Of a stretch of DNA of 64,000 nucleotides, positions 14,729 through 62,224 are shown one piece after another. The translations under genes and the position numbers were made by a program. The stretch is from Octopus sinensis (lineage: Eukaryota): NCBI RefSeq assembly GCF_006345805.1, contig NC_042998.1:60388001-60452000 (forward strand). The letters run 5' to 3'. Position 1 is the stretch's first letter. Each line of letters begins with the position of its first letter. The notes beneath the pieces are model-generated. The model was given only the letters and a program-made list of their open reading frames with translations, was not told where the DNA came from and made no database searches.

Positions 14729-16270
14729 TAGATGACGTAGTGGATTAAGAAGTTGCACTCATGATTCTAGGGACCGGGCGGTGCATTGTCTTCAGGAACA
14801 AAGCACCTCATTTCACGTCGCGCCAGTCCTTTGCGGTTGAAAATGATACCAATCCACCCTGCGATGGACTGGTATCCTGTTCAGAGGAAATGTCGTGACC
14901 TCGGTCACTTCTACACCGTAAAAAAACGAGTAGCCGGTCCCACGAGACCTAGAACTCGAAACTACTACGATTATGACTGACCTACTAACCTGGGACTAAA
15001 CTGTAATCAGTTAGTAGCATTTATTCTGATCAAATTCCATTTGGAAATCAAAGTCCTCTTCTTTCCTCCTGTGTCTGCATAAGAACAAAGAAGAGTCGTG
15101 AATACCGCTCTGTTTTTTGGGGGGTTTTTATTCGTTTCTTATGTTTGTTTCTTTTCCCCTAATGGTTAGACAATAGAAAGTGGAGGCACATGGCTTAGTG
15201 GTTTGGACTCATAATCGTAAGATTGTGGTTTCGATTCCTGGACCGAGAGACGCGCTGTGTTCTTGAGTGAAACATTTCACTTGACGTCGCTCCACTCAGC
15301 TGGCAAGAATGAGTAATCCTGCGACGGACCGACGTTCCATCGAGATGGACGCCACGGAAACCGGTAAACCGGCCCTATGAGTCGGTATGACTCGGAAAGG
15401 AACTTCACTTTCTACTCAGACAAATGGAAAAATGGACAGAAAATGGATCACCACCACCGCCCACGCCATTCACCTATACTAGCTTAACACACCCAAAAGT
15501 ACCACACTCAAGTGTTGCCTACAATGGACAGTCCCCACTCCTTCGACACCCCCACCCCCTCACCTCTCTTCCTTAGCTACGCTACTTGATGTTCAAGTGG
15601 AACATCTGTAATTCGACGTCTTCGGGGAACTAACTAGGAGTAGAGAGGAGGGTTTTTTTGGATAAATGTAAAATGTTAAATTCATGATCTGAATCGGGCG
15701 ATATAGTAGTAGTAGTAGTAGTAGTAGTAGCAGCAGCAGCAGCGGCGGCGGTGGTGGTGGTGGTGGTAGTAGTAGTAGTTGTGGTGGTGTTGGTGGTAGT
15801 TGTTGTTGTCGCAGCGGTGATAATGATGATAATGTCAACGTTGTTTAAGCTTTTGTCAGCTTTGATTGAAGAAAGTCATGATTCAAAAGCATCCTAACCG
15901 TGATTAACTCGCCTTTTATTTTATCTCTTTTATTTAACGTTTATAATACTCTATTCGCTCGTGCATAAAAGTTACTGTTGTCTAATTATATAATACATAA
16001 AAAGAAAAACAGAATGAGAGTAAAAAATTATCTCTATTCACTGGATGGCTTTCTCTCTGTCTCTCCCTCTGTTTCTCCCCCTCTATCTTATCTCTCTCTC
16101 TCTCTCTCTCTCTTCCACTTCTCACTCTGTCACTCTCGCACCTCTCTCTCCATTGTAAATGTCATTTTATGTGTCACAACTGGAGGTGGAGATGCGAGTT
16201 ACTTCCCTTTATTTGTTATTTTCCTTTCGTTTCATTCATTATTTAACTTTTCTGTCATCAGACCAACACG

Positions 16271-16603
16271 ATGCAAGGGGGGAAATGTATTGCAATAATT
16301 GGTGCTGGTGCAAGCGGGCTAACAGCTATTAAAAGCTGCCTGGATGAAGGTCTTGAACCTGTCTGCTTTGAAAAGTACGATGTTACTGGAGGATTGTGGT
16401 GTTATAAAGAAGAAAGTGAACTCGGTCGCTCGACTGTTATGAAATCGACTGTGATAAACACTAGCAAAGAGACGATGGCGTACAGTGACTTTCCTCCTCC
16501 AATACACTTCCCTGTTTATATGCACAATTCGTATGTTTTAAAATATCTGCATATGTATTCCGAAAAATTTAACTTGGACAAATATATCCAGTTTTTCATT
16601 GAG
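16271..16603 (+). CDS. FMO: Flavin-containing monooxygenase (FMO5-like), coding exon 1
   Basis: MQGGKCIAIIGAGASGL (FAD-binding GxGxxG), CFEK..GGLW, NTSKETMAYSDFP; donor GAG|GTAATA, phase 0; acceptor-like TTTTCTGTCATCAG ends at 16261. Confidence 0.95.
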
Positions 16604-17377
16604 GTAATATCGTTTCAAACAGTAATAATTCTTTATTTATTTACAATTAATTATGATTTCTAACTAACTCAAGGCTACTAATTTCTGTGAGTGCTCAGTA
16701 CGTTTTCTTTGGTTTTCTATTCTTTTTTGACTATCCACAAGGGATACGACGATGGGGGAGCGAATAAAGAGGAATACAAAAGCAATTTCATAGTTTTAAA
16801 AATGAAATGATCATCAAAAGAGTTAGAAACGAATGAGATGTCAATTAAAAAGAAAAGAGCCCTAATAGTGGTGAGGAAAACCACCCTCCAGTAAAGCGAA
16901 AGATTACTCTGACAATCACAGCCTAAACTGTATCCTGGCAATTTACCGCCAGCTCGTTGTCACGTAATCCGCGTAACCCGTTTAGCTTCATCGCCCACTC
17001 CGATCACAGCGACGTTTCCGCCATATACAGAATTTCTGTTTACACTCTTGCTATTTCATTTTCATGTTGAGTTATAAAAAAAAAAAAGCATGCATGAGAA
17101 GGAAGAATAAATCAATACTGGTACATATTTTATAGCTACTGGGAGGATGTTATAAAGTTGGCCTCAGTGAGGCCTTATATATTAGAAATTATATATATGT
17201 GTGTGTCTGTGTATGTGTTCTTTTCTGTTGAAGAGCGTAGATGCGAAACGTTAAATACTTTTTCACTTCTCGAGCGTTAATCTAATACATCTGTTTGTTG
17301 TCTACACTACTTGTCTTCGTCCTTTGTTTTTTTGTGAATTCTCCCCCTATATGTATGTATATATATATATATATATA

Positions 17378-17766
17378 AGTTCAGCAAAAATTTAGATTCA
17401 AATGAATATGGTACTTAATTTAGATGCACCAGAATTTTGTATGGTGTTATCCATAAAAATCCGTGGGGTTTTTGCTTCTAACCTTACAGCAGTCAGAACA
17501 ACCAGATCTTAGTCAGTCAGTGGACGGACTCTACTACCTCATATGTTCTTAATATTTAAATCCACATCTTTGTCTATATATCTACCTTCTCTATAATGTT
17601 GCCACTTGATTTGAAAATTTTTGTATTAATGGAAAACCTCTATAATTGGCTGATGAGTACTCAACATCTTAGATCTGTTGTAATACTTACAACATTTAAT
17701 AAAATGATGTAGTACGAAACGATCGTACCAAATTACTGGAGTCATTCTTGTTGCTTATTTTGATTA
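17378..17766 (+). mobile_element. Non-coding Penelope-like pLTR unit between (TA)n tracts
   Basis: Contains the HHR at 17646. 17378-17455 is the reverse complement of 41731-41810 and 17747-17766 matches 41691-41712, implying an inverted 3'-end arrangement. Confidence 0.65.
17646..17731 (+). ncRNA. Type I hammerhead ribozyme
   Basis: TTGG-CTGATGA-GTACT...AGTAC-GAAA-CGATCG-TA-CCAA: intact core, stems I and II pair, palindromic stem III ACGATCGT, predicted cleavage after GUA (17727). Confidence 0.85.
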
Positions 17767-18109
17767 TATATATATATATATAAATAGGCTGTATCATGTG
17801 CGAGGACATGGAAATAATCGGACTGAATACCCGATCGCGCAGTTAAACCATTGGGAATGAATGACTCCTAGCCTTTGTTAGGGCATCCTTCTAGAAGGTA
17901 ACTCAAGTAACTGGGATAACTGCGACATAAAACCTGCGGCTCAGTGGTTACTGATTATGTTGACTTGTTCTTCTTTTCGGATTATAGCTGCTGTTGCTTA
18001 GTGAGTGGGATTGACTCAGTGTACAGCCTTTCCTTACTTTAAAAAAAATCTTGCACAGGCATTGCACGATAACATTGATTAAGCTTTGTGCAATGGCCAT
18101 ACTCGATAA

Positions 18110-18310
18110 CGAGGGGGCAGCCACCATATATACGACTCTTGCGTTCATTGTTCTAGAGAAGAGTTTGGCATTGGTGAGAATTTTCTCCAGTGACTTAGGC
18201 TGTTTGCTGCTTTTAATGATTTTATGCTTACGTAGAATCTCTTCTTTGTTTCTAGGGTTTATGTAGAGAAATAAGGTCGTGCTTTGAGGGCAGATGTGCT
18301 ATTGTTGTGA
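18110..18310 (-). mobile_element. Possible Penelope-like ORF remnant
   Basis: Minus strand HKIIKSSKQPKSLEKILTNAK resembles the PLE post-RT linker motif; short and degraded. Confidence 0.4.
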
Positions 18311-18470: not shown

Positions 18471-18940
18471 ACACACATACACATATGTATTGTGTGTGTG
18501 TGTGTGTGTGTAATGTATGCTTATATATTTGCATGTGTGTCCCCCTCCTGTCTCAACATCAGATGATGGTTGTAATCAAACATTTCCAGTCTTCCTCAAA
18601 AAGCAGTTCTGGCCTTGGGAAGTTATTACATTACTTGGAAACAAGTGGGGTTTGGCTACAGGAATGGCATCCAGCCATAGAAAATCTGCTTCACTGAATT
18701 CCAGATGGGCCATGCAAGCATAAAAAAATGAACATTAGAGGGATCAAAATATACATATTGACTCACTGTCATAGGATCACAGTTTCGATTTCCAGATCGG
18801 GCATTATGAGTGTTTATTGAGCGAAAACACCTAAAGCTCCACGAGGCTCCAGCAGTAAAAATCACCCAATTTCAACTCGAAAAATTGATCCAACCAAGCT
18901 CTCAACTCTCAATTCTCTTGGATAACTGAGAAGTGGACGC

Positions 18941-19531
18941 AATGTTAATAACATTGGCAGTGTTGATGGTAACAACAATAACGGTATTATTGTCGGTGAT
19001 ATTGCTGGTTGTAGTACAATTAATAATACTAATAATAATAGAAATAGTGTAGTTGTTAGCGCTAGTAATAATAAAAGCAACAATCATAACAATAAAAACT
19101 TCGTCTCGATCTCGGAGGACAACCCTAACAGAATAAAATTTTTGTCTAGTAATTCCAAAATTAAGAATTCCATTTACCAGTGTAGAATTTCTTCTGGTAC
19201 CGATGTTTTCTTCTATATTGGAGCGTCCACTTCTCAGTTATCCAAGAGAATTTCTAACCACTATTCGACATTCAGAGATAGGAAAAAACGACATAGTACA
19301 GGGCTAAGTAAATTAGTTTGGCGTCTTAAAGACAACAGTATAACTTTCAAGTTGGATTGGTTCATATTGTCTGTATCCTTTCCTTTTGATAAGGGCAGGC
19401 GATTTTGTAACATTTGTAACTCTGAGCTCTTCTATATTCTTTTCGCTAAGGTTCCCCTAGTAAACACACTCATAGAAAAATCGTACAAATGTAAACATTG
19501 GCAGAAACACACTTTCTACTCATATAAATGA
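18941..19531 (+). CDS. GIY-YIG endonuclease domain of a Penelope-like element (5'-truncated ORF, no start codon)
   Basis: SIYQC..FYIG..KRISNH..TGLSKLVWRLK..W.IL..CNICNSE..N..E..CKH; the frame is open 67 codons upstream of the listed ORF through an Asn-rich tract. Confidence 0.85.
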   Translation, partial: NVNNIGSVDGNNNNGIIVGDIAGCSTINNTNNNRNSVVVSASNNKSNNHNNKNFVSISEDNPNRIKFLSSNSKIKNSIYQCRISSGTDVFFYIGASTSQLSKRISNHYSTFRDRKKRHSTGLSKLVWRLKDNSITFKLDWFILSVSFPFDKGRRFCNICNSELFYILFAKVPLVNTLIEKSYKCKHWQKHTFYSYK

Positions 19532-19964
19532 TAACGATAGTCACTGTGGTTTTAACAATTAGCTTCACGTCCACACCACTGCTATAGAGAAATTCTTTCC
19601 TAAGCCTCCGAACATTCTTTCAATCAACGTACACTTCCCCTTCCCTACCTATTACTCCTTTATATCTTCCCTTACTACTACCTATCTTTGACGTCTGTCT
19701 CTCTCTCACACACACAGACACAAATGCAGTTATATACACACACACACAAATACACGCACTCATTAACACAAGCACACACCCACACATTTCCATACATACA
19801 GCAAACATACTGTCCCCTACCTATTTTTACTTCCTCCTACTATCTATTTTTGACGTCAATGCTTATAACGGATTTTTTTAAAAAAACACTCATTATCGCT
19901 TTGGTTACCATGTAGGCAATCATCGAAATTTTTGTCTGTCTTGTTGTTGAGAGAGGCTCCTTTT

Positions 19965-20046
19965 CTTTCCTGATGAGAAGATTGCATAATGCACCCTTTA
20001 TTCCTTCGGAATGAAAATATGCTGTCTTCGAAACATGTGTCGAGAG
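19965..20046 (+). ncRNA. Type I hammerhead ribozyme
   Basis: CTTTC-CTGATGA-GAAGA...TCTTC-GAAA-CATGTG-TC-GAGAG; extended stem II; predicted cleavage after GUC (20041). Confidence 0.85.
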
Positions 20047-20272
20047 TAAAGGAATTTTGTTAACATCTTCGTTCGACTCCATTCTTTCATTTATTCATAT
20101 ACAACACACAAATTTCTACACATGAACCCGGAGTTTCTACCCTTGACAGGTCGCTTCAAGCGTGTTTTCTGACGTGAATTTGCTACCCAGGTTTCGGTTA
20201 AACGAATTTTCCATGCTGACAATAAACATAGGATAATTCATTCACCTACTTATATATATATATATATATGTA

Positions 20273-21470
20273 TTAGGTTGTTTCACATTTTTCATTACTT
20301 GTTATTTCAGTCAATTAAAAACTCAATTATGTATAACTTGCATTTAATCGTGACTCCTTTTCTTTCCCAACAATACTGGTGTACAAAATTCTTACCCACA
20401 GACCTTATGGATATGATAACAACCAAACTATGTTGAGTGATTTTCTCATATGAGTACAAACTGGGTGACTCTGCTGCAGAAGCTCTATGCAATATGAAGC
20501 GGGCCTTTGGTAATGGTTTTGTTAACATCAGAACTGTTCAGAGATGGTTCCAAAGCTCTCGTTCAGATGATAGCCTTGAAAATAAACCAAGGAGTAGGCC
20601 AAAATCAGTTATTCAGCATGATGGATTAAATACTTTGGTTGAACAAAATCCGAGGACAAAGGTTTGGAAACTCTCATCAGAACTCCAAATATCTTGCACA
20701 ACTGTTTTCAGACACCTGTAAAAAATTGGAAAAGTTAAGAAAACAGATAGGTATGTTCCACATCAACTGAATGAGTGTGCTCCTTATTGCTTTCTCTGTT
20801 GGAAAAAGACCATTTTTGCATCAAATCATTACTTGTGATGAGAAATGGACACTCTTTGACAACAGCAAGAGAACAGGACAGTGATTTAATGCTGGAGAGT
20901 CGCCTAAACACTACCCAAACCCACCATTGCACTCTAAAATGTTAGTGGTCACTGTATGGTGGTCTGCGAAAGGAGTTATTCATTATTGATTTTTGCAACA
21001 AGGAAAAACAGTAACAGCAATATCATATTGCCAGGAAATTGATTGTATGTATGAGAATTTGGAAAAGAAGCCCAACCCAGACTAGTGAATAGAGATGGTC
21101 CAATTTTGCTCCACAACAATGCACATCTTCACTCCTCAAACTACGGTCCAAAAGTTGCAAATCCTGAATTATGAGATTTTGCAACATCCTCTCTATTCCC
21201 CTGATATCTCTCCTACTGATCATCAATTATTTTAGCATTTTGAGCTTTTCATAAGCAATAAAGCATTCTTAAATAGAGAAGAGGTAATTGAAGCATTCAG
21301 ACAGTTTATCGCAGCAAAAGAGGAATTTTTTGAAAGATGGAATATATGACATAGAGAAACGTTGGGTAAACATCATAAATGAGCATGGGTCGTACTTTGA
21401 TTAAATAAATCACTTTTGAAGCATTTTATTATTACCTTTCAAATACAACATTTCATGTGAAACAACCTAA
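20273..21470 (+). mobile_element. Full-length decayed mariner transposon
   Basis: TIRs TTAGGTTGTTTCACAT / ATGTGAAACAACCTAA with TA on both sides; transposase remnants (TVQRWFQ, TCDEKW, LLHNNA, HPLYSPDISPTD) with stops and frameshifts. Confidence 0.92.
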
Positions 21471-24740: not shown

Positions 24741-25078
24741 TCTTCACCTTCTTTTACTATCCTTTATCTCTCTCCACCCCTACACACTCAACAATACTAT
24801 AAAAGAGAAGAATCATCTCAAACACATTCAAATCTGAAGAGTCTACTAGAGTAGATGCAAGCTCTATTATATGATTTATAAAAACATGATATATTAATAA
24901 AAATTTGTGAATATAAAACCATCCAGATTTCTGAGTACCTTATTTCTTCTAATATATAATACCAGTACATCACCTCCAAACCTTCTAATATGTATACATA
25001 TACTTACATATATATATATATATATATATAAATAAATGAAAGAATGGAGTCGAACGACGATTTAACAAAATTCCTTTA

Positions 25079-25161
25079 TTCTCGACATATGTTTCGAAGA
25101 CTGCATATTCCTAATTCCGAAGGAATAAGGGGTGCATTATGCCGCCTTCTCATCAGGAAAG
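25079..25161 (-). ncRNA. Type I hammerhead ribozyme (left arm)
   Basis: Reverse complement of the HHR at 25301-25383. Confidence 0.85.
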
Positions 25162-25300
25162 ACAAGGAACTTATGTCAGCATCATGATGAACAAAAATTT
25201 TTAGATGACTGCCCACACGGAGTCCATAGTGATAATGAACTCCGTGTGGGCAGTCATCTAAAAAATTTTGTTCGTCATGATGCTGACATAAGTTCCTTGT

Positions 25301-25383
25301 CTTTCCTGATGAGAAGGCGGCATAATGCACCCCTTATTCCTTCGGAATTAGGAATATGCAGTCTTCGAAACATATGTCGAGAA
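25301..25383 (+). ncRNA. Type I hammerhead ribozyme (right arm)
   Basis: TTTC-CTGATGA-GAAGGC...GTCTTC-GAAA-CATATG-TC-GAGA; palindromic stem III ACATATGT; predicted cleavage after GUC (25378). Confidence 0.87.
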
Positions 25384-26210
25384 TAAAGGAATTTTGTTAA
25401 ATTGTCGTTCATTTATTTATAGTAAAAAAACACATGAAAGCACATGATCTCTGCCCTTGGTATGTAGCTTCAACCGTGTTTTCTGACATGAATTTGCTAC
25501 CCAGGTATCGGTTAACCGAATTATCCATACTAGGATAATTCATTCAACTACTTATATATATATATATATATACATATTAGCTTTAAACAACAAGGTTTTG
25601 TAATAATAGTTAATTACAAGTACTTTTATTAGTTCCTATTTAATAAAATTTAATGTTTCTATTAGTTACTGGTAATCTAATATTATAGCTTGTAGTGGTG
25701 ATATATTAATGAGTATGTAGTGTTTTATTATTAACTTTTGACTCATAATTAATAATTAATTTTCACTCATAATTAATATATTATTAGTTAAATTAATTTC
25801 AATCATGTTTGTTTTATTTTGGAGAGAATTATATAAGGCCTTAACTTTTATTATAGTAGTACCTATGGAAGACTGGTGGGATTATTATTTGTATGAACTT
25901 AAAGATTGGTCACAATCTCTCTCTCTCTCTCTCTCTCCCTCTCCCTCCCTCTCTTTACACCATCGCTAGAAGGGGACTTAACTCATGTTTTAATGGCGTC
26001 ACTACGGTGGATTTCTCCACCATGAAAATTGAAGTTATGGCTCAAAATTATTTACCGCTATTCGCGGGTGCCTCAGGGGAAAATAATTTGACGAAAATAC
26101 AGCTAGGGTCGTGACGAATATTCTCTTAAATTTGAGCGACATGCGTGCTAATTTGTGGATGTGCATAAACTACAATCATGTACACACACACACACACACA
26201 TCCTGCCTTA

Positions 26211-37815: not shown

Positions 37816-39178
37816 ATCATTATATATATATATGTAAGACTACTTCCTAAATTCAATAAGTCCATGCAGACCTTTCAAGGGTCAAAGAAATTTCTGTGTG
37901 TGAATTTGTTTTGAGTGAGTATATTGTTGCACAGTGCTGAATCCAATTTTCAGTGCAATCAGCTGTAAAACCAGTGGCAACAAGAGGTTGAGATGACCAG
38001 AAGCCAACTGCACTTCAAGTGTTTTTCAGACAAGTTTACCTGCTCCTAGAAAGAAGTTCTAATGAGAATTAGGGAGCCTTCACTTCCAGTCATTCACATG
38101 CTAATTAATCCATAGCTGGGACACAAACAGGTGCTATTACTCAAGGTCAGAGTCTACTCTGACCTGGAGCAATGGTATCTAAGAGATAGTTCCCCATTCC
38201 TGAAGACTCTGGAACTCCCATACCAAGCTCCCCACTGCAGGATGCAGTTTGAAGTTACCCCCCATACACACACACATACATGGTCACACACTGGGCTTTT
38301 TTCAATTTTGGTCAACCAAATCCACATACAAGGTTTTGGTCAATCTGGGGTTATAGTAGAAGACACCTGAGGTGCAATGCTGTGGAACTGATCCTGAAAC
38401 CATGTGGTTGGGAAGCAAACTTCTTAACCATACAGCCATACCTGCACCTTTGTACCTAAAGTGTCATATTTATACTATATTTCCACTGTTTTACCCCAGG
38501 CCAACCTTGATTGAGCAGACTTTTGATTTGTGACATTCCATCTATGACTATCCAATCTATTTATGGTTATGTAGAAGTACATTATCTAATATCATCCATT
38601 CTAATATATGAAGATTTAATTTAAAGGAAATTTTGTTGCTATTTCTAGCAGGTCAAAAAACAACCACATTTAGGTTCCCCCAATTGAATTGTTTTAATAC
38701 TACCATTGTCTTTGTTGTTTAGGCCCCTGGTCATTCTTGATCAAATAGACCTATGATCAAAGGCATTCCAGCTATGACCACCTTGACCTGGGAACCAAAG
38801 ACCAATATATATCCAGTATATTCTTTCCTAAGATGCTATTTTAGATGGGTGAAGGTGTGTAGCTTAGTGGTTAGGGTATTCGACTCACAGTCATAAGGTC
38901 GTGAGTTCAGTTCCTTGTGACATGTTGTGTCCTTGAGCAAGACACTTTATTTCACATTGCTCCAGTTCACTCAGCTGCCAGAAATGAGTAGTACCTGTAT
39001 TTCTTTACAAGCAGGTTGTTCCATTGAACTGGAATCCTTGTCATCATAACAAACAGGGTGCCATTTATATTAGATGGAGGTTTAGTTATTTCTAACTGGC
39101 TGAATGACTTCATATAGTTTACTTCTTTGACTGGTGCATTGGTAATATTTCAATTTTTCTTTTATCCAATCTAAACAG

Positions 39179-39478
39179 GTCACGAAAGTCGAAAAATCTG
39201 ATGATTTTACCGCTTCTGGTCAATGGAAAGTGTACACTAGAAACTGCAAATCAGGTGAAGAAAATGTCGCTACATTTGACAGTGTCCTAGTTTGTACTGG
39301 GCATCATGCTGCTCCAAAAATCCCATCATTTCCTGGCATTGAAAAGTTCAAAGGACAAGTAATTCATTCTCAGCTCTACAAACACAGTAAGGGTTATGAA
39401 GACAAGAGAGTTGTTGTAATAGGTTTTGGAAATTCTGGTGGTGATATTGCTGTTGAAGTCTCTAATACCACAGCCCAA
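39179..39478 (+). CDS. FMO: FMO coding exon 2
   Basis: Acceptor AAACAG|, [25 protein letters not shown] signature [17 protein letters not shown]-binding GFGNSG; donor CAA|GTAAGT, phase 0. Confidence 0.96.
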
Positions 39479-39812
39479 GTAAGTCTTGTATATTTCTTTA
39501 TTTTAAATTTTGCCATTTAGTGTTTAAGCCAGCTATATCTGACCAAAATATTGTTTCAGATTTATGTTCAAACTGGTTAGATCCAACCTTTCACACCTAC
39601 CCTACAATGTCATTCTAAAAATAAATAATTGCATCATCCAAATGTCAAGCTATAAGATTAATCCAAAATAATGTAAATAAATAAGTATTGCATTTGACAG
39701 AATAATTTGGATGCTAAAGAGTTAAACTTTTTCCTTTTTAATAATTAGCTTTTAAATTATCTTTTTCAAAAAATTTGATATTTTTAAACAACTATAATTT
39801 TTGTTTTAATGA

Positions 39813-41238: not shown

Positions 41239-41896
41239 TATCACCATTATCGAATTATTTCATCATTGCTGTATATGAGAAGAGAAATATTTTTGTGAAA
41301 ATAGAAAAATATTCCCCAAAAGGAAAACACTGTAAAAGCAACTGCTACATAAACCTCAACCTTATTGATATTACAGTCATAGGGACATTACAGCCTTTGT
41401 AGCAATATGGTTGTTATTCATAATACAGGGGCTAACATATACCATATTTGATGGCCTGTAAGATGCTCTTTTTCTCCAGAAATCCCCCAGGTCCTTTGTG
41501 TGAAGTTGGACCTATACGGGGGGTGCTGAAAAGTTCCTGGCTTTAAGGGTATCTTGAAAGACCTGGTTAGAGGCCTAACCTTCCAAGTTCTTTAACAGCT
41601 GAAACTAGAAAAAAAAAATATATATATATATATACATATATATACATATATATGTATGTATTTATGTATATATATATATAAATAAATATCCTTGTTGCTA
41701 ATTTTGATTATAATCACCTTATTTTAAATTATATGGATAATACTATAGTAAATTCTGGTGCCTTCAACTTAAGTACCATATTCATCTGAATCTAAATTTT
41801 ACTGAACTTATATATATATATATATATATATATTGACATAATGAAATAAAAAAAACCAAGGTAGTAAATAGATTTCATAACATTTATCAAGAAAAG

Positions 41897-41944
41897 GTCT
41901 TACAGCTGTTTCTAGGATATTTTATATATCCTTTCATCAGAGAC
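41897..41944 (-). ncRNA. Minimal type I hammerhead ribozyme
   Basis: Minus strand: GTCT-CTGATGA-aAGGATAT-ataaa-ATATCCTa-GAAA-CAGCTG-TA-AGAC; palindromic stem III ACAGCTGT; GUA site; A-A mismatch at the base of stem II. Confidence 0.82.
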
Positions 41945-42714
41945 AGTGCAAGAAAAAGTTTGAGTATTAATTATTGTAGAGAAGATATGAAATGCAGAGG
42001 GAAATAAGTGAATGAATATAGAAGTCAGATACATAAAGATATTGTATTTGCAGTTCCATTATTGAAGTGGAAATGTGTATATAAGTACAACCAGTTGGAT
42101 GTACCCATGCTGGAGCATCACCCATCACAAAATATTACTGTACCAAGCTAACTAGGGAACCTCTATACTTGACCTGCTTGAAAAAGCAATCAAACAACTT
42201 CATCTCACACTCTACTGCCTTGAAAAATGGACACATTAAATAATGTAGTCCTAGATACACTATGTATGAAAATGAGAGGAACTGGTCTCAGCTGAAATGT
42301 TCTTCACCAAATGTTTGCTCAGTTAGATGTTATTGACAATGTTATTAGGTTGGGTCAGCCAGGAGTTGAACCTAGATTGATTCTTTGAAAAGCAATAAAC
42401 CATTACACCACTACTAGTTATAATAAACACATTAATATAAATCAAATCATGCACCAGCTAAATACATTTTACTAATTACTCTGCAATATACTTGCTTGTT
42501 AATGATTTTGTTGTTGAGAATTAAAGTTCTCAAAGTTTATTAGCAGACTATCAAAAATGTATTTTTCCTGATTTTTGTAAAGTAAAACAATGAAGAACTT
42601 TCAGTCCAAACTGTCTTGTTTATATCCTAATTATTCCAAACAGGAATAATTATATTTCCAGCAGATTTTGATTCTAGCTATTTACCTTAAACTCAATAAA
42701 GTAGCATATCTTTG

Positions 42715-42930: not shown

Positions 42931-43164
42931 GTGAAAAGCAAAGAAGCTGATTCTGGAAGGTAGTTTTGATATTTTTAGACAAAGTATCTTAAAATCACTT
43001 ACCTTTGTACTTTGTTCAGGTGTTGTTAACAGTATATGAATTGGATTTAGTTGAAAATGACTTATTTTTGTACTCTCTTGAAATTTGTATGAATATCAGA
43101 TTATATAAATATGATGTAATTTCTAATGTTTGATGTTTTAAACTGACATTTCATTATATTTCAG

Positions 43165-43716
43165 ACATATCTAAGTACAAGACATGGAGCATGGGTAATC
43201 AATCGAGTGGCAGATAAAGGTTATCCTATAGATATGTTCATTCAGAAAAGATTTCTAAACACCGTAATGAAATTAGCACCATCAGTTGGCAATACTTTAG
43301 CTGAATGGAAACTGAATCAGCGTTTCGACCATGCACTATATTCAATAAAACCTAAACATTCATTTCAAAGCCAGCACCCGACAGTAAATGATTTACTTCC
43401 TAACAAAATAATTACGCATTCTGTAATTATAAAGCCAGATGTTCAAGAAATAACAGAGAATGGAATTCAGTTTGTTGATGGCACTTTTGAAGATAACATT
43501 GATACAATAATTCTTGCAACTGGTTATGACATTAAAATACCTTTCATTGCAAAATCAATTCTTGATACAGAAAAAAATAATTTTCATTTATTCAAATACA
43601 TTTTCCCACCTGACCTTGAGAAACCTACTTTGGCTTTAATTGGTTTTGTACAGCCTATTGGAGCACTTCTGCCGATTTCTGAGCTTCAGTGCCGTCTTGC
43701 AACACGTGTTTTCAAG
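43165..43716 (+). CDS. FMO: FMO coding exon 3
   Basis: Acceptor TTTCAG|, TYLSTRHGAWVINRV, HPTVNDLLP, ILATGY, LFKYIFPP, PIGALLPISELQCR; donor AAG|GTAAGA, phase 0. Confidence 0.96.
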
Positions 43717-43908
43717 GTAAGAATAAGATTTGTAAGTAGTATTAGAACATTGTCTGGATCACTTAAAATTCAGACTATATTTTCTTTTCAGTGTATGTGT
43801 TACAAGTTCATAAATGATTTTGATATAACTTTTGAAAGGTAGTGGATGGTAATTGGCAGAGCTCTACATTTGGCCCAATATTTTAATTTTCCTACTTAAC
43901 CATCATCT

Positions 43909-50885: not shown

Positions 50886-51156
50886 CAATAGTAATAATAG
50901 TACATTTTACAAACCATTTCTCTTTTAAGTACTTGATTCTAACATACATCATATTTGTAGAGGAAATAGTTGATTTTCAGTTATGATACTCCTGTCTTTC
51001 TAAAAGACATTTTTAAACATATATGAGAGAAGAAAATTGTATATATTTAATGAGTTTATGTGTATATGTTCCTATAAGACATTGATAGCTACAATAAGTA
51101 GACATCTGATATTGTATATGATACCAATGTTTAAACAGAACTATGATAAATTTCAG

Positions 51157-51322
51157 GGTGATGTGATTCTACCACCTGCTGCAGATATGTGGAAAGATAT
51201 TAGAGAAAAGGAAATTGAAGTACGAAAGCGCTATGTAAAAAGTGAAAGGCATACAATCCAAGTAGATATTATTGATTACATGGATGAACTTGCTGAAATG
51301 AATGGTTGCAAGCCTAATTTTA
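51157..51322 (+). CDS. FMO: FMO coding exon 4
   Basis: Acceptor TTTCAG|, GDVILPP..RYVKSERHTIQVDIIDYMDELA..GCKPNF; donor A|GTAAGT, phase 1. Confidence 0.94.
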
Positions 51323-51539
51323 GTAAGTATCATTACCACTTTATACTTTCATATCAGCTTGAAAAAAATTTCATTCTAAAACTTGTTTTTGTTTGTTTGA
51401 ATGATGTCTTTTATTCCATTTTTCTTTTCTGTGAAATACTGGGGGTTGATGTAATCGACTTATTCCCTCCCCCAAAATGGCTGCCCTTGTGACAAAATTT
51501 GAAATTATTATTATTATTATCATTATTATTATTATTATT

Positions 51540-57148: not shown

Positions 57149-57206
57149 TAAATAAAAGAATTTAATTGTAAAAAAAATAATCTTTCTATTTATATTTTCT
57201 TTTCAG

Positions 57207-57484
57207 AAAAAATGCTGTTTTATGACCCTTCTTTAGCTCTATATTGCATATTTCAATCTTACACCCCATACCAGTATCGACTGGTGGGTCCTGGAAAATG
57301 GGATGGAGCAAAGGAAGCTCTCTATGGAATTTGGGACAGAACCCTAACAGCAATTTCACAAAAGTCTGTACATACTGAGAGTGGTGGAATGACACAGAGT
57401 GGTGGAATGACACAGATGTTATTGAAGGCATTTTGTTTCCTTGGTTTGGTCTTCATTTTAAACTGGATGTTCCAATTTTTTTAA
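57207..57484 (+). CDS. FMO: FMO coding exon 5 (terminal)
   Basis: Acceptor TTTTCTTTTCAG|, phase matches exon 4; DPSLA..TPYQYRLVGPGKWDGAKEA; hydrophobic C-terminal anchor; TAA stop; spliced CDS 1629 nt = 542 aa. Confidence 0.95.
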
Positions 57485-59601: not shown

Positions 59602-61155
59602 CTGGGTTGGCCAAAACAAACCGTTACCTTTTGGGATCTTTTCGGTTTGAATGGCAGTTTTTAACATAATTTCTAGGTAATTAAAAAATTTTAAACTTCG
59701 TATACTGGTAGAATGTGTTTATAAGCCATTTTTTTCTCTTGGCTTTATTGAGAAAATTCTATAGTTTGTAAGATATTTGTTGTTTTTTTTCTTCAATTTC
59801 TGCAATTTCAACCAATCAAATACGTCTATTGAGTTAAAAAAGCATTCTGTGCCGTATGAATATGTCCCTCATTTAAGAAACAGATTGGGTTTATTTACAT
59901 TTGTGAAGAAAAAAAGATACCCTTCCCCCCACCCCTAACCCTAACCCTAAAAGAGATTGAAATGCAATAGATCGATTCTAGGGTTATAATTATGGGTAAC
60001 AATTTCATATGACACCGCTAGAAAAAACTGCCGTTCAAACCGAAAAGATCCCCTTTTTTCTTACTTTTGCACATTCGTACTCGTTAGAAACAACACTAAG
60101 GTAGTTCGACACGACAGGTTGTAGTTTGTGTGATTGAGAGCATCCTGAAAATGGAGAACCAAAATGAACATTATCGACACGTCATGCTTTTTTTTAAAAT
60201 TATTTTACGATGTACAGAAACGATGCTATTATGGACCGTGTGTGTCAGAAGGGTGTTCCGGATTTCAATCGGGAGACTTTTCCGCTTTAGATGCACCTCT
60301 CTCTGGTCGGTCAACTGAGATTAACAGCGACAGAGTGAACGAGTTAGCTGAGGCTAAACCCCATTATATGACTAGGATTATTGCAGAAATTTTCCAAATA
60401 CCCATCTGCATCAACTTGGTTACGTCAATAAGCTCCATGTTTTAGTCCCACTCCAGTTGTCCGATGAGAACACTGCCCAATGAATGTCCATCTACGATGC
60501 ACGTAGAAAGCGATCCTTTTCTCCTTTTTTTAAAGAGAATGCCGACAGGGAACGGAAAATGGATCGGCTATAACAATGTGAAGCATAAACGACTCAGAGG
60601 GAAGCGTGGCGAACCACCATAAACAGCCTGCAAGGCAGGATTTTACCTAAAGAAGATTATGCTTTCAATTTGGTGGGATTGCAAGGGTATTGTCTTTTAC
60701 GAATTCCTTCCCACAAACAGGATCATCAGTTCGGATACACACTGTGACCAGCCGAATAAATTAAACGCAGCGGTCCATCTCAAGCGTTCAGAACTTGATA
60801 GTCGTAAAATCATTGTCTTTCATGTCGACAATATCAGACCGAAAACATTTTTGCTGAAGTAGCAGAAGTTACTTGAACTTAGCTTGGAGGTTTTGCACCA
60901 TCGACTTTACGCCTTCAGATTTTCACTTGTTTCGGTATTTTCAAAATTCATTAAATGGACAAGCCTTCAGCTCTGAAGAAGATGTAAAAATTCACCAGGA
61001 AGAGTTCTTCGCCAATAAAGACAGAGCATTCTGTGGGCAGAGAATAAATGGATCTGCCCAGAAGATACTGAAACTAAATGGCAATTACATCAATAATTAA
61101 ATAAATTGCTCTATGTTTAAAATCTGTCTAATTTTTCCTTAAAAAGTGAACGAAC
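59602..61155 (+). mobile_element. Decayed mariner interrupted by a MITE
   Basis: TA|CTGGGTTGGCCAAAA end; peptides MENQNEHYRHVM, MLSIWWDCKGIV, FHVDNIRP, PSDFHLFR. Confidence 0.85.
59634..60051 (-). mobile_element. Second copy of the TTAGGG-containing MITE
   Basis: Reverse complement of 12057-12467; (CCCTAA)3 at ~59933-59950; same TIRs; TSD imperfect (CCTTTT). Confidence 0.88.
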
Positions 61156-61325
61156 ATTCATTGAGATAATTTCAAACACAAAAAATCTCTTCTCATAATA
61201 ACAAACTGTTAAATATTAATACATTTACTAATACTAACATTAATTTAGCTAATACCATCCAACCCTCTAGAAATATTAATAACAAGGTTATTGTATCTGA
61301 AGTCAATTCCAATAGAATTAAGTTT

Positions 61326-61715
61326 ATGTCAAGTAACTCTAAGATTAGAAATTCTATATGCCAGTGTATAATCAGTACTCGTAATAAAGTACGATTTTAC
61401 ATTGGAAGCACATCGTTAGAGTTATCTAAAAGAATTTCTATCCATTACTCAACATTTAGGGATAGAAATAAACGGAATAGTACCGGTCTCAGCAAACTGA
61501 TTTGGAATTTAAAAGACCACAATGAACAATTTCATTTAGAATGGTTGATTCTCTCAATTTCGATACCATAGGACAAAGGCAAGAAATTCTGTCTTCTCTG
61601 CAATTCTGAGCTATTTTTCATTATTTTTTCTAAAACTACTCTAGTAAACACGGTTATAGAGCGAGCATACAGATGTAAGCATTGGCAAAAACATACATTT
61701 AGTGCATATAAGTAG
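61326..61715 (+). pseudogene. GIY-YIG endonuclease domain with one in-frame TAG
   Basis: SICQC..FYIG..KRISIH..TGLSKLIWNLK; after the TAG at 61569-61571 it continues DKGKKFCLLCNSELFFI..RCKHWQKHTFSAYK*, collinear with 19142-19531. Confidence 0.85.
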
Positions 61716-61901
61716 TCGCTATCATTATATATAATTTAAACTTTAATTTCCTTTATATTTAACATTCACTATTAATATCCCTACTCTTTCTGTTATATCA
61801 TATAACGTTTTTTTAAATAATATTAATAGCGTTCTGTCTATCGCTATACAAATCCATCATTTTTTGCTAAAATGTCTTATTGACAAGTTTCGTTTTTTTC
61901 C

Positions 61902-61985
61902 CTTTCCTGAGGAGAAGATTGCATTGTTTATACCATTTATTCTTTTGAATAGTATCAGTGGAATTTTCGAAACATGTGTCGAAAG
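61902..61985 (+). ncRNA. Type I hammerhead ribozyme
   Basis: CTTTC-CTGAGGA-GAAGATT...AATTTTC-GAAA-CATGTG-TC-GAAAG; perfect stem I; GUC site at 61978-61980. Confidence 0.82.
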
Positions 61986-62173
61986 TAAAAATATTTGATT
62001 ACACCTGCGTTAACTCCATTTTTTTATTCATATTATTAAAAATATTCAATGTAAACACGAAGTTTCTACCTTTATAAACAAGGAGTTACAACACCTTTAC
62101 TTGTGAGATTTTTGCTGCCCTGGTAACTATTTATTTATTTTCCGTGTTAATTGTTAACAAGGTAAAATACACT

Positions 62174-62224
<51 letters not shown>

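What the first reader, a model, noticed from the sequence alone, without database searches (positions are those of the whole stretch)
18941..20251. GIY-YIG endonuclease + hammerhead module with Asn-rich linker and no RT in view
Seen: an uninterrupted frame (Asn-rich tract, GIY-YIG, CxxC..CxH tail), then an HHR with a long stem II, a conserved ~200-nt tail and (TA)n. A diverged paralogue with the same layout is at 61165-62181, and both begin within the Asn-rich tract. Established: PLEs encode RT plus GIY-YIG and carry HHRs in pLTRs. Inference: most simply 5'-truncated Naiad-like PLEs targeting (TA)n. An RT-less endonuclease-plus-ribozyme element is a real alternative, since neither copy shows any RT.
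Basis: partly seen in the sequence, partly recalled or inferred. Interest (0 to 1): 0.8.

Follow-up and report, generated by a model that had tools for sequence, protein, structure and literature searches.

The report
Truncated Hydra-type Penelope retrotransposon copy
The enzyme-plus-ribozyme module is the cut-off back end of a Penelope-like jumping gene whose longer copies in the same genome carry the reverse transcriptase, so it is not a new enzyme-only element, but its paired insertions always have one long and one short end, which likely means the two cut DNA strands start copying the RNA at two different fixed sites.

Summary
The parts are real, but the EN-only idea is refuted and 'Naiad-like' is wrong. 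Window 18941-20251 and 61170-62181 are 5'-truncated copies of two Penelope-like families (A, B). Longer copies in the same genome carry RT in frame with the same GIY-YIG domain. 5' ends are staggered: 98 distinct among 105. DKT, C-terminal EN without CCHH, CxxC/CxH, a hammerhead fold and (TA)n targets place both in the Hydra clade. The 'tail' is the leader of the next tandem unit. Two features go beyond what I found in print. (1) Both families lost the linker Cys finger that 81 of 82 homologues keep, yet still end in (TA)n (133 of 152 ends). (2) The tail is ~150 nt, and head-to-head insertions pair one tailed with one tail-less end in 42 of 42 and 14 of 14 resolved family A cases, with either arm the longer. 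This points to two-strand priming at two different RNA sites (inferred). Earlier scan notes report similar fold-back stumps in other genomes.

The parts
18911..18940 (-). 30-bp inverted piece of the element's own EN region at the 5' junction of copy A
   Evidence: 100% reverse complement of 19223-19252
18941..19114 (+). Distal part of the Asn-rich linker between RT thumb and EN; 5' truncation point of copy A
   Evidence: 20 Asn of 58 aa; continues upstream into RT in other copies
19115..19174 (+). Cys-free pre-GIY segment at the position of the Hydra CxCX5C finger
   Evidence: alignment; no Cys in 161 of 162 rows of family A/B copies; 14 of 16 codons same residue between copies A and B
19175..19531 (+). 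Hydra-type GIY-YIG endonuclease with C-terminal CxxC and CxH, ending at the ORF stop
19532..19964 (+). 3' UTR with (CA)/(CT)-rich stretch
   Evidence: shared by family A copies
19965..20046 (+). Type I hammerhead motif with long stem II and minimal stem III; predicted cleavage after C20041
20047..20101 (+). End of the pLTR; 20101 is the short 3' end used by many copies
20102..20251 (+). ~150-nt tail = 5' leader of the next tandem unit; 20251 is the long 3' end
   Evidence: in tandem copies it runs on 47 nt to the ORF ATG; leader stem
20252..20268 (.). (TA)n at the 3' junction
   Evidence: 133 of 152 family ends are followed by (TA)4+
25020..25555 (.). Protein-less head-to-head pLTR pair of an older family A subfamily: short end on the left arm, long end on the right, (TA)n on both sides, two identical hammerheads
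61170..62181 (+). Copy B: 5'-truncated member of sister family B (short Asn linker, EN with in-frame TAG at 61569-61571, hammerhead core 61907, long end), followed by (TA)n

Best explanation
[quoted passage not shown] Shown: the unit is leader (~200 nt) - ATG - RT - Asn linker - EN - 3' UTR - hammerhead, about 3.2-3.35 kb in family A and 2.9 kb in B, with tandem pLTR copies; 3' ends fall at two positions ~150 nt apart; head-to-head pairs carry one of each. Inferred: the RNA runs from one unit into the leader of the next; the protein nicks both strands of (TA)n; one 3'-OH primes at the short site, the other at the long site, each helped by 2-5 nt of TA-like sequence in a predicted unpaired stretch of the leader; both cDNAs usually stop early and are joined head to head or to the flank. 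Copy A is a long-site product of 1.31 kb whose other strand contributed only a 30-bp inverted piece. The hammerhead would cleave only as a dimer or with protein help, as described for other PLEs.
For: 150 scored EN matches of 17,351 candidates, open frames up to 787 aa. RT motifs (SDKT, FD, GSxD..AQIAD, YRDD) in frame with the EN: 644-aa uninterrupted frame in L033, 670 aa in L031; family B likewise. 98 distinct 5' ends among 105 uncut family A copies, at most 6 in any 20 nt; 72 of 107 extend 5' of the Asn linker, 34 past YRDD (sample enriched for long copies); 27 distinct values among 30 family B copies. Of 30 copies picked by the 3' end alone, 19 have no EN and 7 a whole one. pLTR-tail-ATG tandems. 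Long+short in 42 of 42 joined pairs (one duplicate), 14 of 14, 11 of 12 in family B with one ambiguous. The arm reaching further 5' is long-ended in 24, short-ended in 18. Arms of one pair differ by 2.9%, arms of different pairs by 8.5% (27 pairs). pN/pS 0.19/0.80 (EN) and 0.13/0.72 (RT) between families. Two internal start sites and extension of both strands were shown in vitro for a Poseidon PLE (PMC11167929).
Against: No intact full-length ORF among 10 near-full family A copies, so activity is not shown. No published Hydra sequence was in my tree; placement rests on motifs and on reading Fig. S7. One defining Hydra motif (CxCX5C) is absent and RWK is RWL. Only 14 of 39 plain truncated copies have TA at the 5' flank and copy A has none, so a clean insertion into a (TA)n run is not the rule; flank deletion is assumed. 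No empty site was seen. The priming model is inferred from genomic products only.
Confidence: 0.9

Rival explanations
1. An RT-less endonuclease-plus-ribozyme element with its own 5' end.
For: Neither window copy has RT; copy A's frame is open; four copies end at reference 2204-2206.
Against: In-frame RT upstream in both families; staggered ends; of the four near 2205 two are one duplicated locus and the junctions differ; no Met in copy A's frame; copies A and B start at non-homologous points.
Confidence: 0.01
2. Naiad-type PLE.
For: (TA)n preference and heavy 5' truncation are shared with Naiads.
Against: EN is C-terminal, no CCHH, DKT not DKA, hammerhead present.
Confidence: 0.005
3. Same element, but the inverted arm is made by fold-back of the first cDNA onto itself rather than by a second priming on RNA.
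For: Explains why arms of a pair are near-identical and why only one has the tail; self-priming was proposed for rotifer Penelopes (PMC3846280 passages).
Against: Fold-back makes the tailed arm always the longer one, since only it holds the tail; in 18 of 42 pairs the tail-less arm reaches further 5' and so holds sequence missing from the tailed arm. An antisense-template or template-switch version is not excluded.
Confidence: 0.07
4. Short ends are later deletions of the tail between the TATA at the short site and the flanking (TA)n.
For: The short site carries TATA and the long end is followed by (TA)n.
Against: Random later loss would give long+long and short+short pairs; none in 42, 14 and 11.
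Confidence: 0.015

Closest known systems
Hydra clade of Penelope-like elements (Craig et al. 2021, PMC8557442), including Hydra-1_Obim
   Same: Single ORF RT then GIY-YIG; DKT; no CCHH; CxxC and CxH around the conserved E and N; hammerhead near the 3' end; (TA)n targets.
   Different: Linker CxCX5C finger gone, replaced by an Asn-rich tract and a conserved Cys-free segment; RWK reads RWL; family A unit exceeds 3 kb; tail ~150 nt instead of the 30-40 bp given for PLEs; long hammerhead stem II. Hydra-1_Obim (2507 bp) keeps the finger and has another hammerhead, so it is a different family.
Poseidon PAc of Anolis (Frangieh et al. 2024, PMC11167929)
   Same: Two internal RT start sites that bound the tail; both strands cut and extended; AT-rich targets; hammerhead in the pLTR.
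   Different: There the tail lies in the ORF and start sites were not homologous to the cut DNA and did not differ between strands in bulk; here the tail is untranslated leader, both sites carry short TA-like homology, and each event uses one site per arm.
Penelope elements of Adineta vaga (Arkhipova et al. 2013, PMC3846280)
   Same: [quoted passage not shown]
   Different: Other clade; 31-bp tail; the one-end rule was stated for single cases, not counted, in the passages I saw.
Naiad PLEs
   Same: (TA)n targets, partial tandems and inverted 5' pieces.
   Different: N-terminal EN with CCHH, DKA, no canonical hammerhead.
Non-LTR retrozymes (bioRxiv 10.64898/2026.07.22.740005, first part read)
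   Same: Protein-less hammerhead units derived from PLE pLTRs, like the pair at window 25020-25555.
   Different: Retrozymes are head-to-tail tandems; these are head-to-head truncation products.

Membership tests
Hydra PLE | Single ORF with RT and C-terminal GIY-YIG EN | tested here: met
Hydra PLE | DKG modified to DKT | tested here: met
   SDKT in both families
Hydra PLE | RWK motif near the N-terminus | tested here: inconclusive
   RW kept, K replaced by L
Hydra PLE | No CCHH in the EN; CxxC and CxH either side of conserved E and N | tested here: met
   invariant C104 C107 E110 N123 C132 H134; one Cys only between GIY and YIG
Hydra PLE | No IFD in the RT | tested here: met
   no insertion between RT3 and RT4 against DKT-type homologues and Fig. 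S7 read by eye
Hydra PLE | CxCX5C motif in the linker | tested here: not met
   absent in 161 of 162 rows of family A/B copies; present in 81 of 82 EN-bearing homologues; loss looks derived. Hence filed as a variant, not a plain member
Hydra PLE | Hammerhead near the 3' end | tested here: met
   cleavage itself not tested
Hydra PLE | Insertion into (TA)n | tested here: met
   133 of 152 3' ends versus 5.7% background; 5' flank TA in only 14 of 39 plain copies
Hydra PLE | RT phylogeny with named Hydra references | not tested
   published sequences were read but not used as input; tree holds unnamed homologues only
PLE in general | pLTR partial tandems, inverted 5' copies, optional tail | tested here: met
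PLE in general | Retained intron in the 5' leader | tested here: inconclusive
   77-nt GT..AG candidate; no spliced joint in four contig sets; its GT lies in a predicted stem
Naiad PLE | N-terminal EN with CCHH, DKA, no canonical hammerhead | tested here: not met
EN-only element (hypothetical) | Shared defined 5' end without RT | tested here: not met

The most novel reading that the evidence does not exclude
These families show a general rule of Penelope integration: in one event the two nicked strands always start on the same source RNA at different sites, one each, set by a structured leader whose ends pair with the start codon; and (TA)n targeting survives complete loss of the linker Cys finger proposed to mediate it, so specificity sits in the EN core, the Cys-free replacement segment or primer-template TA pairing.
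Probability: 0.55. Interest if true: 0.55.

Novelty: new variant of a known kind. Interest (0 to 1): 0.36.

Why it matters
As flagged, the finding is ordinary: a truncated retrotransposon end. What remains is useful to the PLE field, where the origin of inverted pLTRs and the tail is open. A 150-nt tail makes the two ends easy to score, and the strict one-long-one-short pairing with either arm longer limits the models and gives a sharp in vitro prediction. The natural loss of the linker finger with (TA)n ends kept is a counter-example to the suggestion that this motif drives microsatellite targeting (PMC8557442).

Tried and rejected
Rfam found no hammerhead at gathering or E-value thresholds; unconstrained folds gave z -1.7, -1.9, -0.2, so the hammerhead call rests on motif, constrained fold and covariation. 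Pfam gave no RT hit for the family's or homologues' ORFs; PDB sequence search gave only a retron-type RT at E 0.8; no Foldseek hit reached E 0.001; the wider structural search did not run. Sequencing runs: no RNA holder listed; contigs showed no spliced leader joint and no listed joint across copy A, so no empty site (13 joints not shown); these are blanks, not evidence. Both 3' ends do appear as TA-bearing loose ends in three runs. Scan notes by sequence: nothing. Set aside before the family A pair count: 8 loci with one end unresolved or intermediate (three fit tail+short, none long+long or short+short) and 4 unjoined pairs (all long+short). 43 of the 150 EN hits were not scored as rows. dS between families is saturated, so only pN/pS is given. 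The careful tree did not finish; the quick tree is cited.

Full report
Observation. The frame 18926-19531 is open for 201 codons and has no Met. From 18941 it encodes an Asn-rich tract (20 of 58 residues) and a nuclease domain. Pfam GIY-YIG is weak (E 0.066; 0.002 for copy B; both under the cut-off), but Y, YxG, R, H, E, N and four C-terminal Cys/His are invariant in a 71-row alignment, and the model (pLDDT 85) ranks T4 EndoII, Hpy188I and I-TevI at or near the top, best E 0.02. Rfam missed the ribozyme. The motif is nonetheless complete: core 19970, stem II to 20029, GAA 20030, minimal stem III, C20041, stem I; across 19 related motifs 92% of cells pair and 9 of 26 pairs change on both sides, above all 500 shuffles and all slid controls, with the caveat that the rows are related and the structure came from copy A. 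Copy B (61170-62181) has the same layout, 68% EN identity and an in-frame TAG. It begins before its Asn tract, not in it.

What it is. The window lies in a 2.72-Gb genome; no call names the organism, and my guess of a cephalopod is from recall. The EN query gave 150 scored matches of 17,351 candidates. Upstream of the EN, copies run in frame into an RT: 644 aa without a stop in L033, 670 aa in L031. Family B does the same. Copies that reach the 5' end show pLTR, ~150-nt tail, 47 nt, ATG (family B). The unit is about 3.2-3.35 kb in A and 2.86 kb in B. None of 10 near-full A copies has an intact ORF. Divergence between families is mostly synonymous: pN/pS 0.19/0.80 in the EN, 0.13/0.72 in the RT.

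EN-only test. I scored 107 of the 150 hits (top 30, 60 further hits, 15 picked for long frames and 2 from the RT search, so the set is enriched for long copies). Among 105 uncut copies there are 98 distinct 5' ends, at most 6 in any 20 nt; 72 of 107 extend past the Asn linker, 34 past YRDD, 3 to the ATG. Thirty B copies give 27 values, four of them cut by the locus edge. Of 30 copies chosen by the 3' end alone, 19 hold no EN and 7 the whole EN. EN-without-RT is one slice of a truncation series.

Clade. By Craig et al. 2021 (PMC8557442; parts 1-6 of 10 of the text and supplement parts 2, 58, 59 plus passages read) Naiads have an N-terminal EN and lack hammerheads, whereas Hydra elements have C-terminal EN, DKT, RWK, no CCHH, CxxC/CxH, hammerheads, (TA)n targets and a CxCX5C linker. 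All but two are met. RWK reads RWL. The linker finger is absent: no Cys in the 22 residues before the first catalytic Tyr in 161 of 162 rows (overlapping loci). Of 154 homologues held, 82 align to the EN; 73 match the motif by pattern, 7 with longer spacers and 1 before an insert by eye, and the one without is 79% identical to family A. In a quick tree without named references the families form a long branch (SH-aLRT 99, with two partial proteins) among finger-bearing relatives, so loss is the likelier direction. The replacing segment is conserved (14 of 16 residues between A and B). Targets are still (TA)n: 133 of 152 3' ends against 5.7% of random windows in the same loci. Asn-rich inserts alone are not new (P0002-P0004; PMC3846280 passages). 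Hydra-1_Obim is a different family.

Two ends, one each. Main copies end at the long site in 59 and the short site in 42 of 107, 6 otherwise. In joined head-to-head insertions with both ends resolved, 42 of 42 are long+short (26 and 16 by orientation); two are one duplicated locus; 8 loci with an unresolved or intermediate end were set aside and none was long+long or short+short. In the 30 copies chosen for a long end, 14 have an inverted partner with a 3' end and all 14 are short (13 at 20101, one at 20086). Family B gives 11 long+short and one ambiguous locus, L070. The window holds its own example at 25020-25555. The arm reaching further 5' is long-ended in 24 pairs and short-ended in 18, and arms of one pair are closer to each other (2.9%) than to other pairs (8.5%; 27 pairs). 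Fold-back on the first cDNA cannot give the 18. The leader is predicted to fold so that the last bases of the pLTR pair with the start codon, and an inner stem differs between A and B by four two-sided changes, which count as one comparison; both end sites lie in predicted unpaired AU-rich stretches.

Mechanism. Shown: anatomy, truncation series, two ends, pairing, TA at 3' ends. Inferred: nicks on both strands of (TA)n, priming of each on the read-through RNA at a different site, early stops, head-to-head or flank joining. This fits the in vitro behaviour of PAc (PMC11167929, parts 1-2 of 4 read: both strands extended, two internal start sites bounding the tail, hammerhead not needed for insertion and active only with protein) and the dimer model for short stem III motifs (PMC4209133 passages). 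Against a clean picture: only 14 of 39 plain truncated copies have TA on the 5' side, copy A among those without, and no empty site was seen.

Novelty. That the tail is often on one end only is in print. I found no count of the pairing, no arm-length test and no finger-less Hydra family in six searches of the held library; PMC13282606 (passages) lists Penelope-like families without clades. Subscription papers, Repbase entries and bioRxiv supplements were not searchable and may hold some of this. Two earlier scan notes describe hammerhead fold-back stumps of PLEs in other genomes; they agree with the reading and did not change it.

Verdict. A 5'-truncated Hydra-type PLE, not an EN-only class and not a Naiad; a new variant through loss of the linker finger, with a countable integration rule. 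Interest 0.36.

Noticed in passing
window 16247-16663, 39146-39520, 43147-43842, 51004-51492, 57152-57484 (+): Exons of a flavin-containing monooxygenase gene (three exons hit Pfam FMO-like); copy A and the 25-kb pair lie in its introns, copy B downstream of the last exon seen.
   Followed up: partly
window 25020-25555: Protein-less palindrome of two pLTRs with identical hammerheads, one short and one long end, (TA)n on both sides; looks like a MITE but is a truncation product of the same element.
   Followed up: yes
window ~17645-17765 (+): Another hammerhead-like motif followed by (TA)n; a similar motif was picked up in L127. Probably the 3' end of a different PLE family.
   Followed up: no
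window 17783-18298 (-): Decayed frame ending at the same (TA)n, with a segment that resembles the pre-EN region of other PLE clades (resemblance recalled; no Pfam hit).
   Followed up: partly
window 41890-41951 (-): A further short hammerhead-like motif.
   Followed up: no
window ~20270-21470 and ~60100-61160: Decayed mariner-like elements abut the 3' (TA)n of copy A and the 5' end of copy B; terminal inverted repeat seen for the first, transposase identity recalled.
   Followed up: partly
L044:1096-1540, L106:434-529, L098:4819-4914: More diverged sister families with related hammerheads; the L044 one is again a head-to-head pair with one long and one short end.
   Followed up: partly
L085, L092, L103: Nested tandem and inverted arrays of element fragments with internal deletions, some repeating only tail plus ORF start.
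   Followed up: no
L031:2894-3082, L041:2700-4770, L028: Inverted arms that jump between distant parts of the element, suggesting template jumps during synthesis.
   Followed up: no
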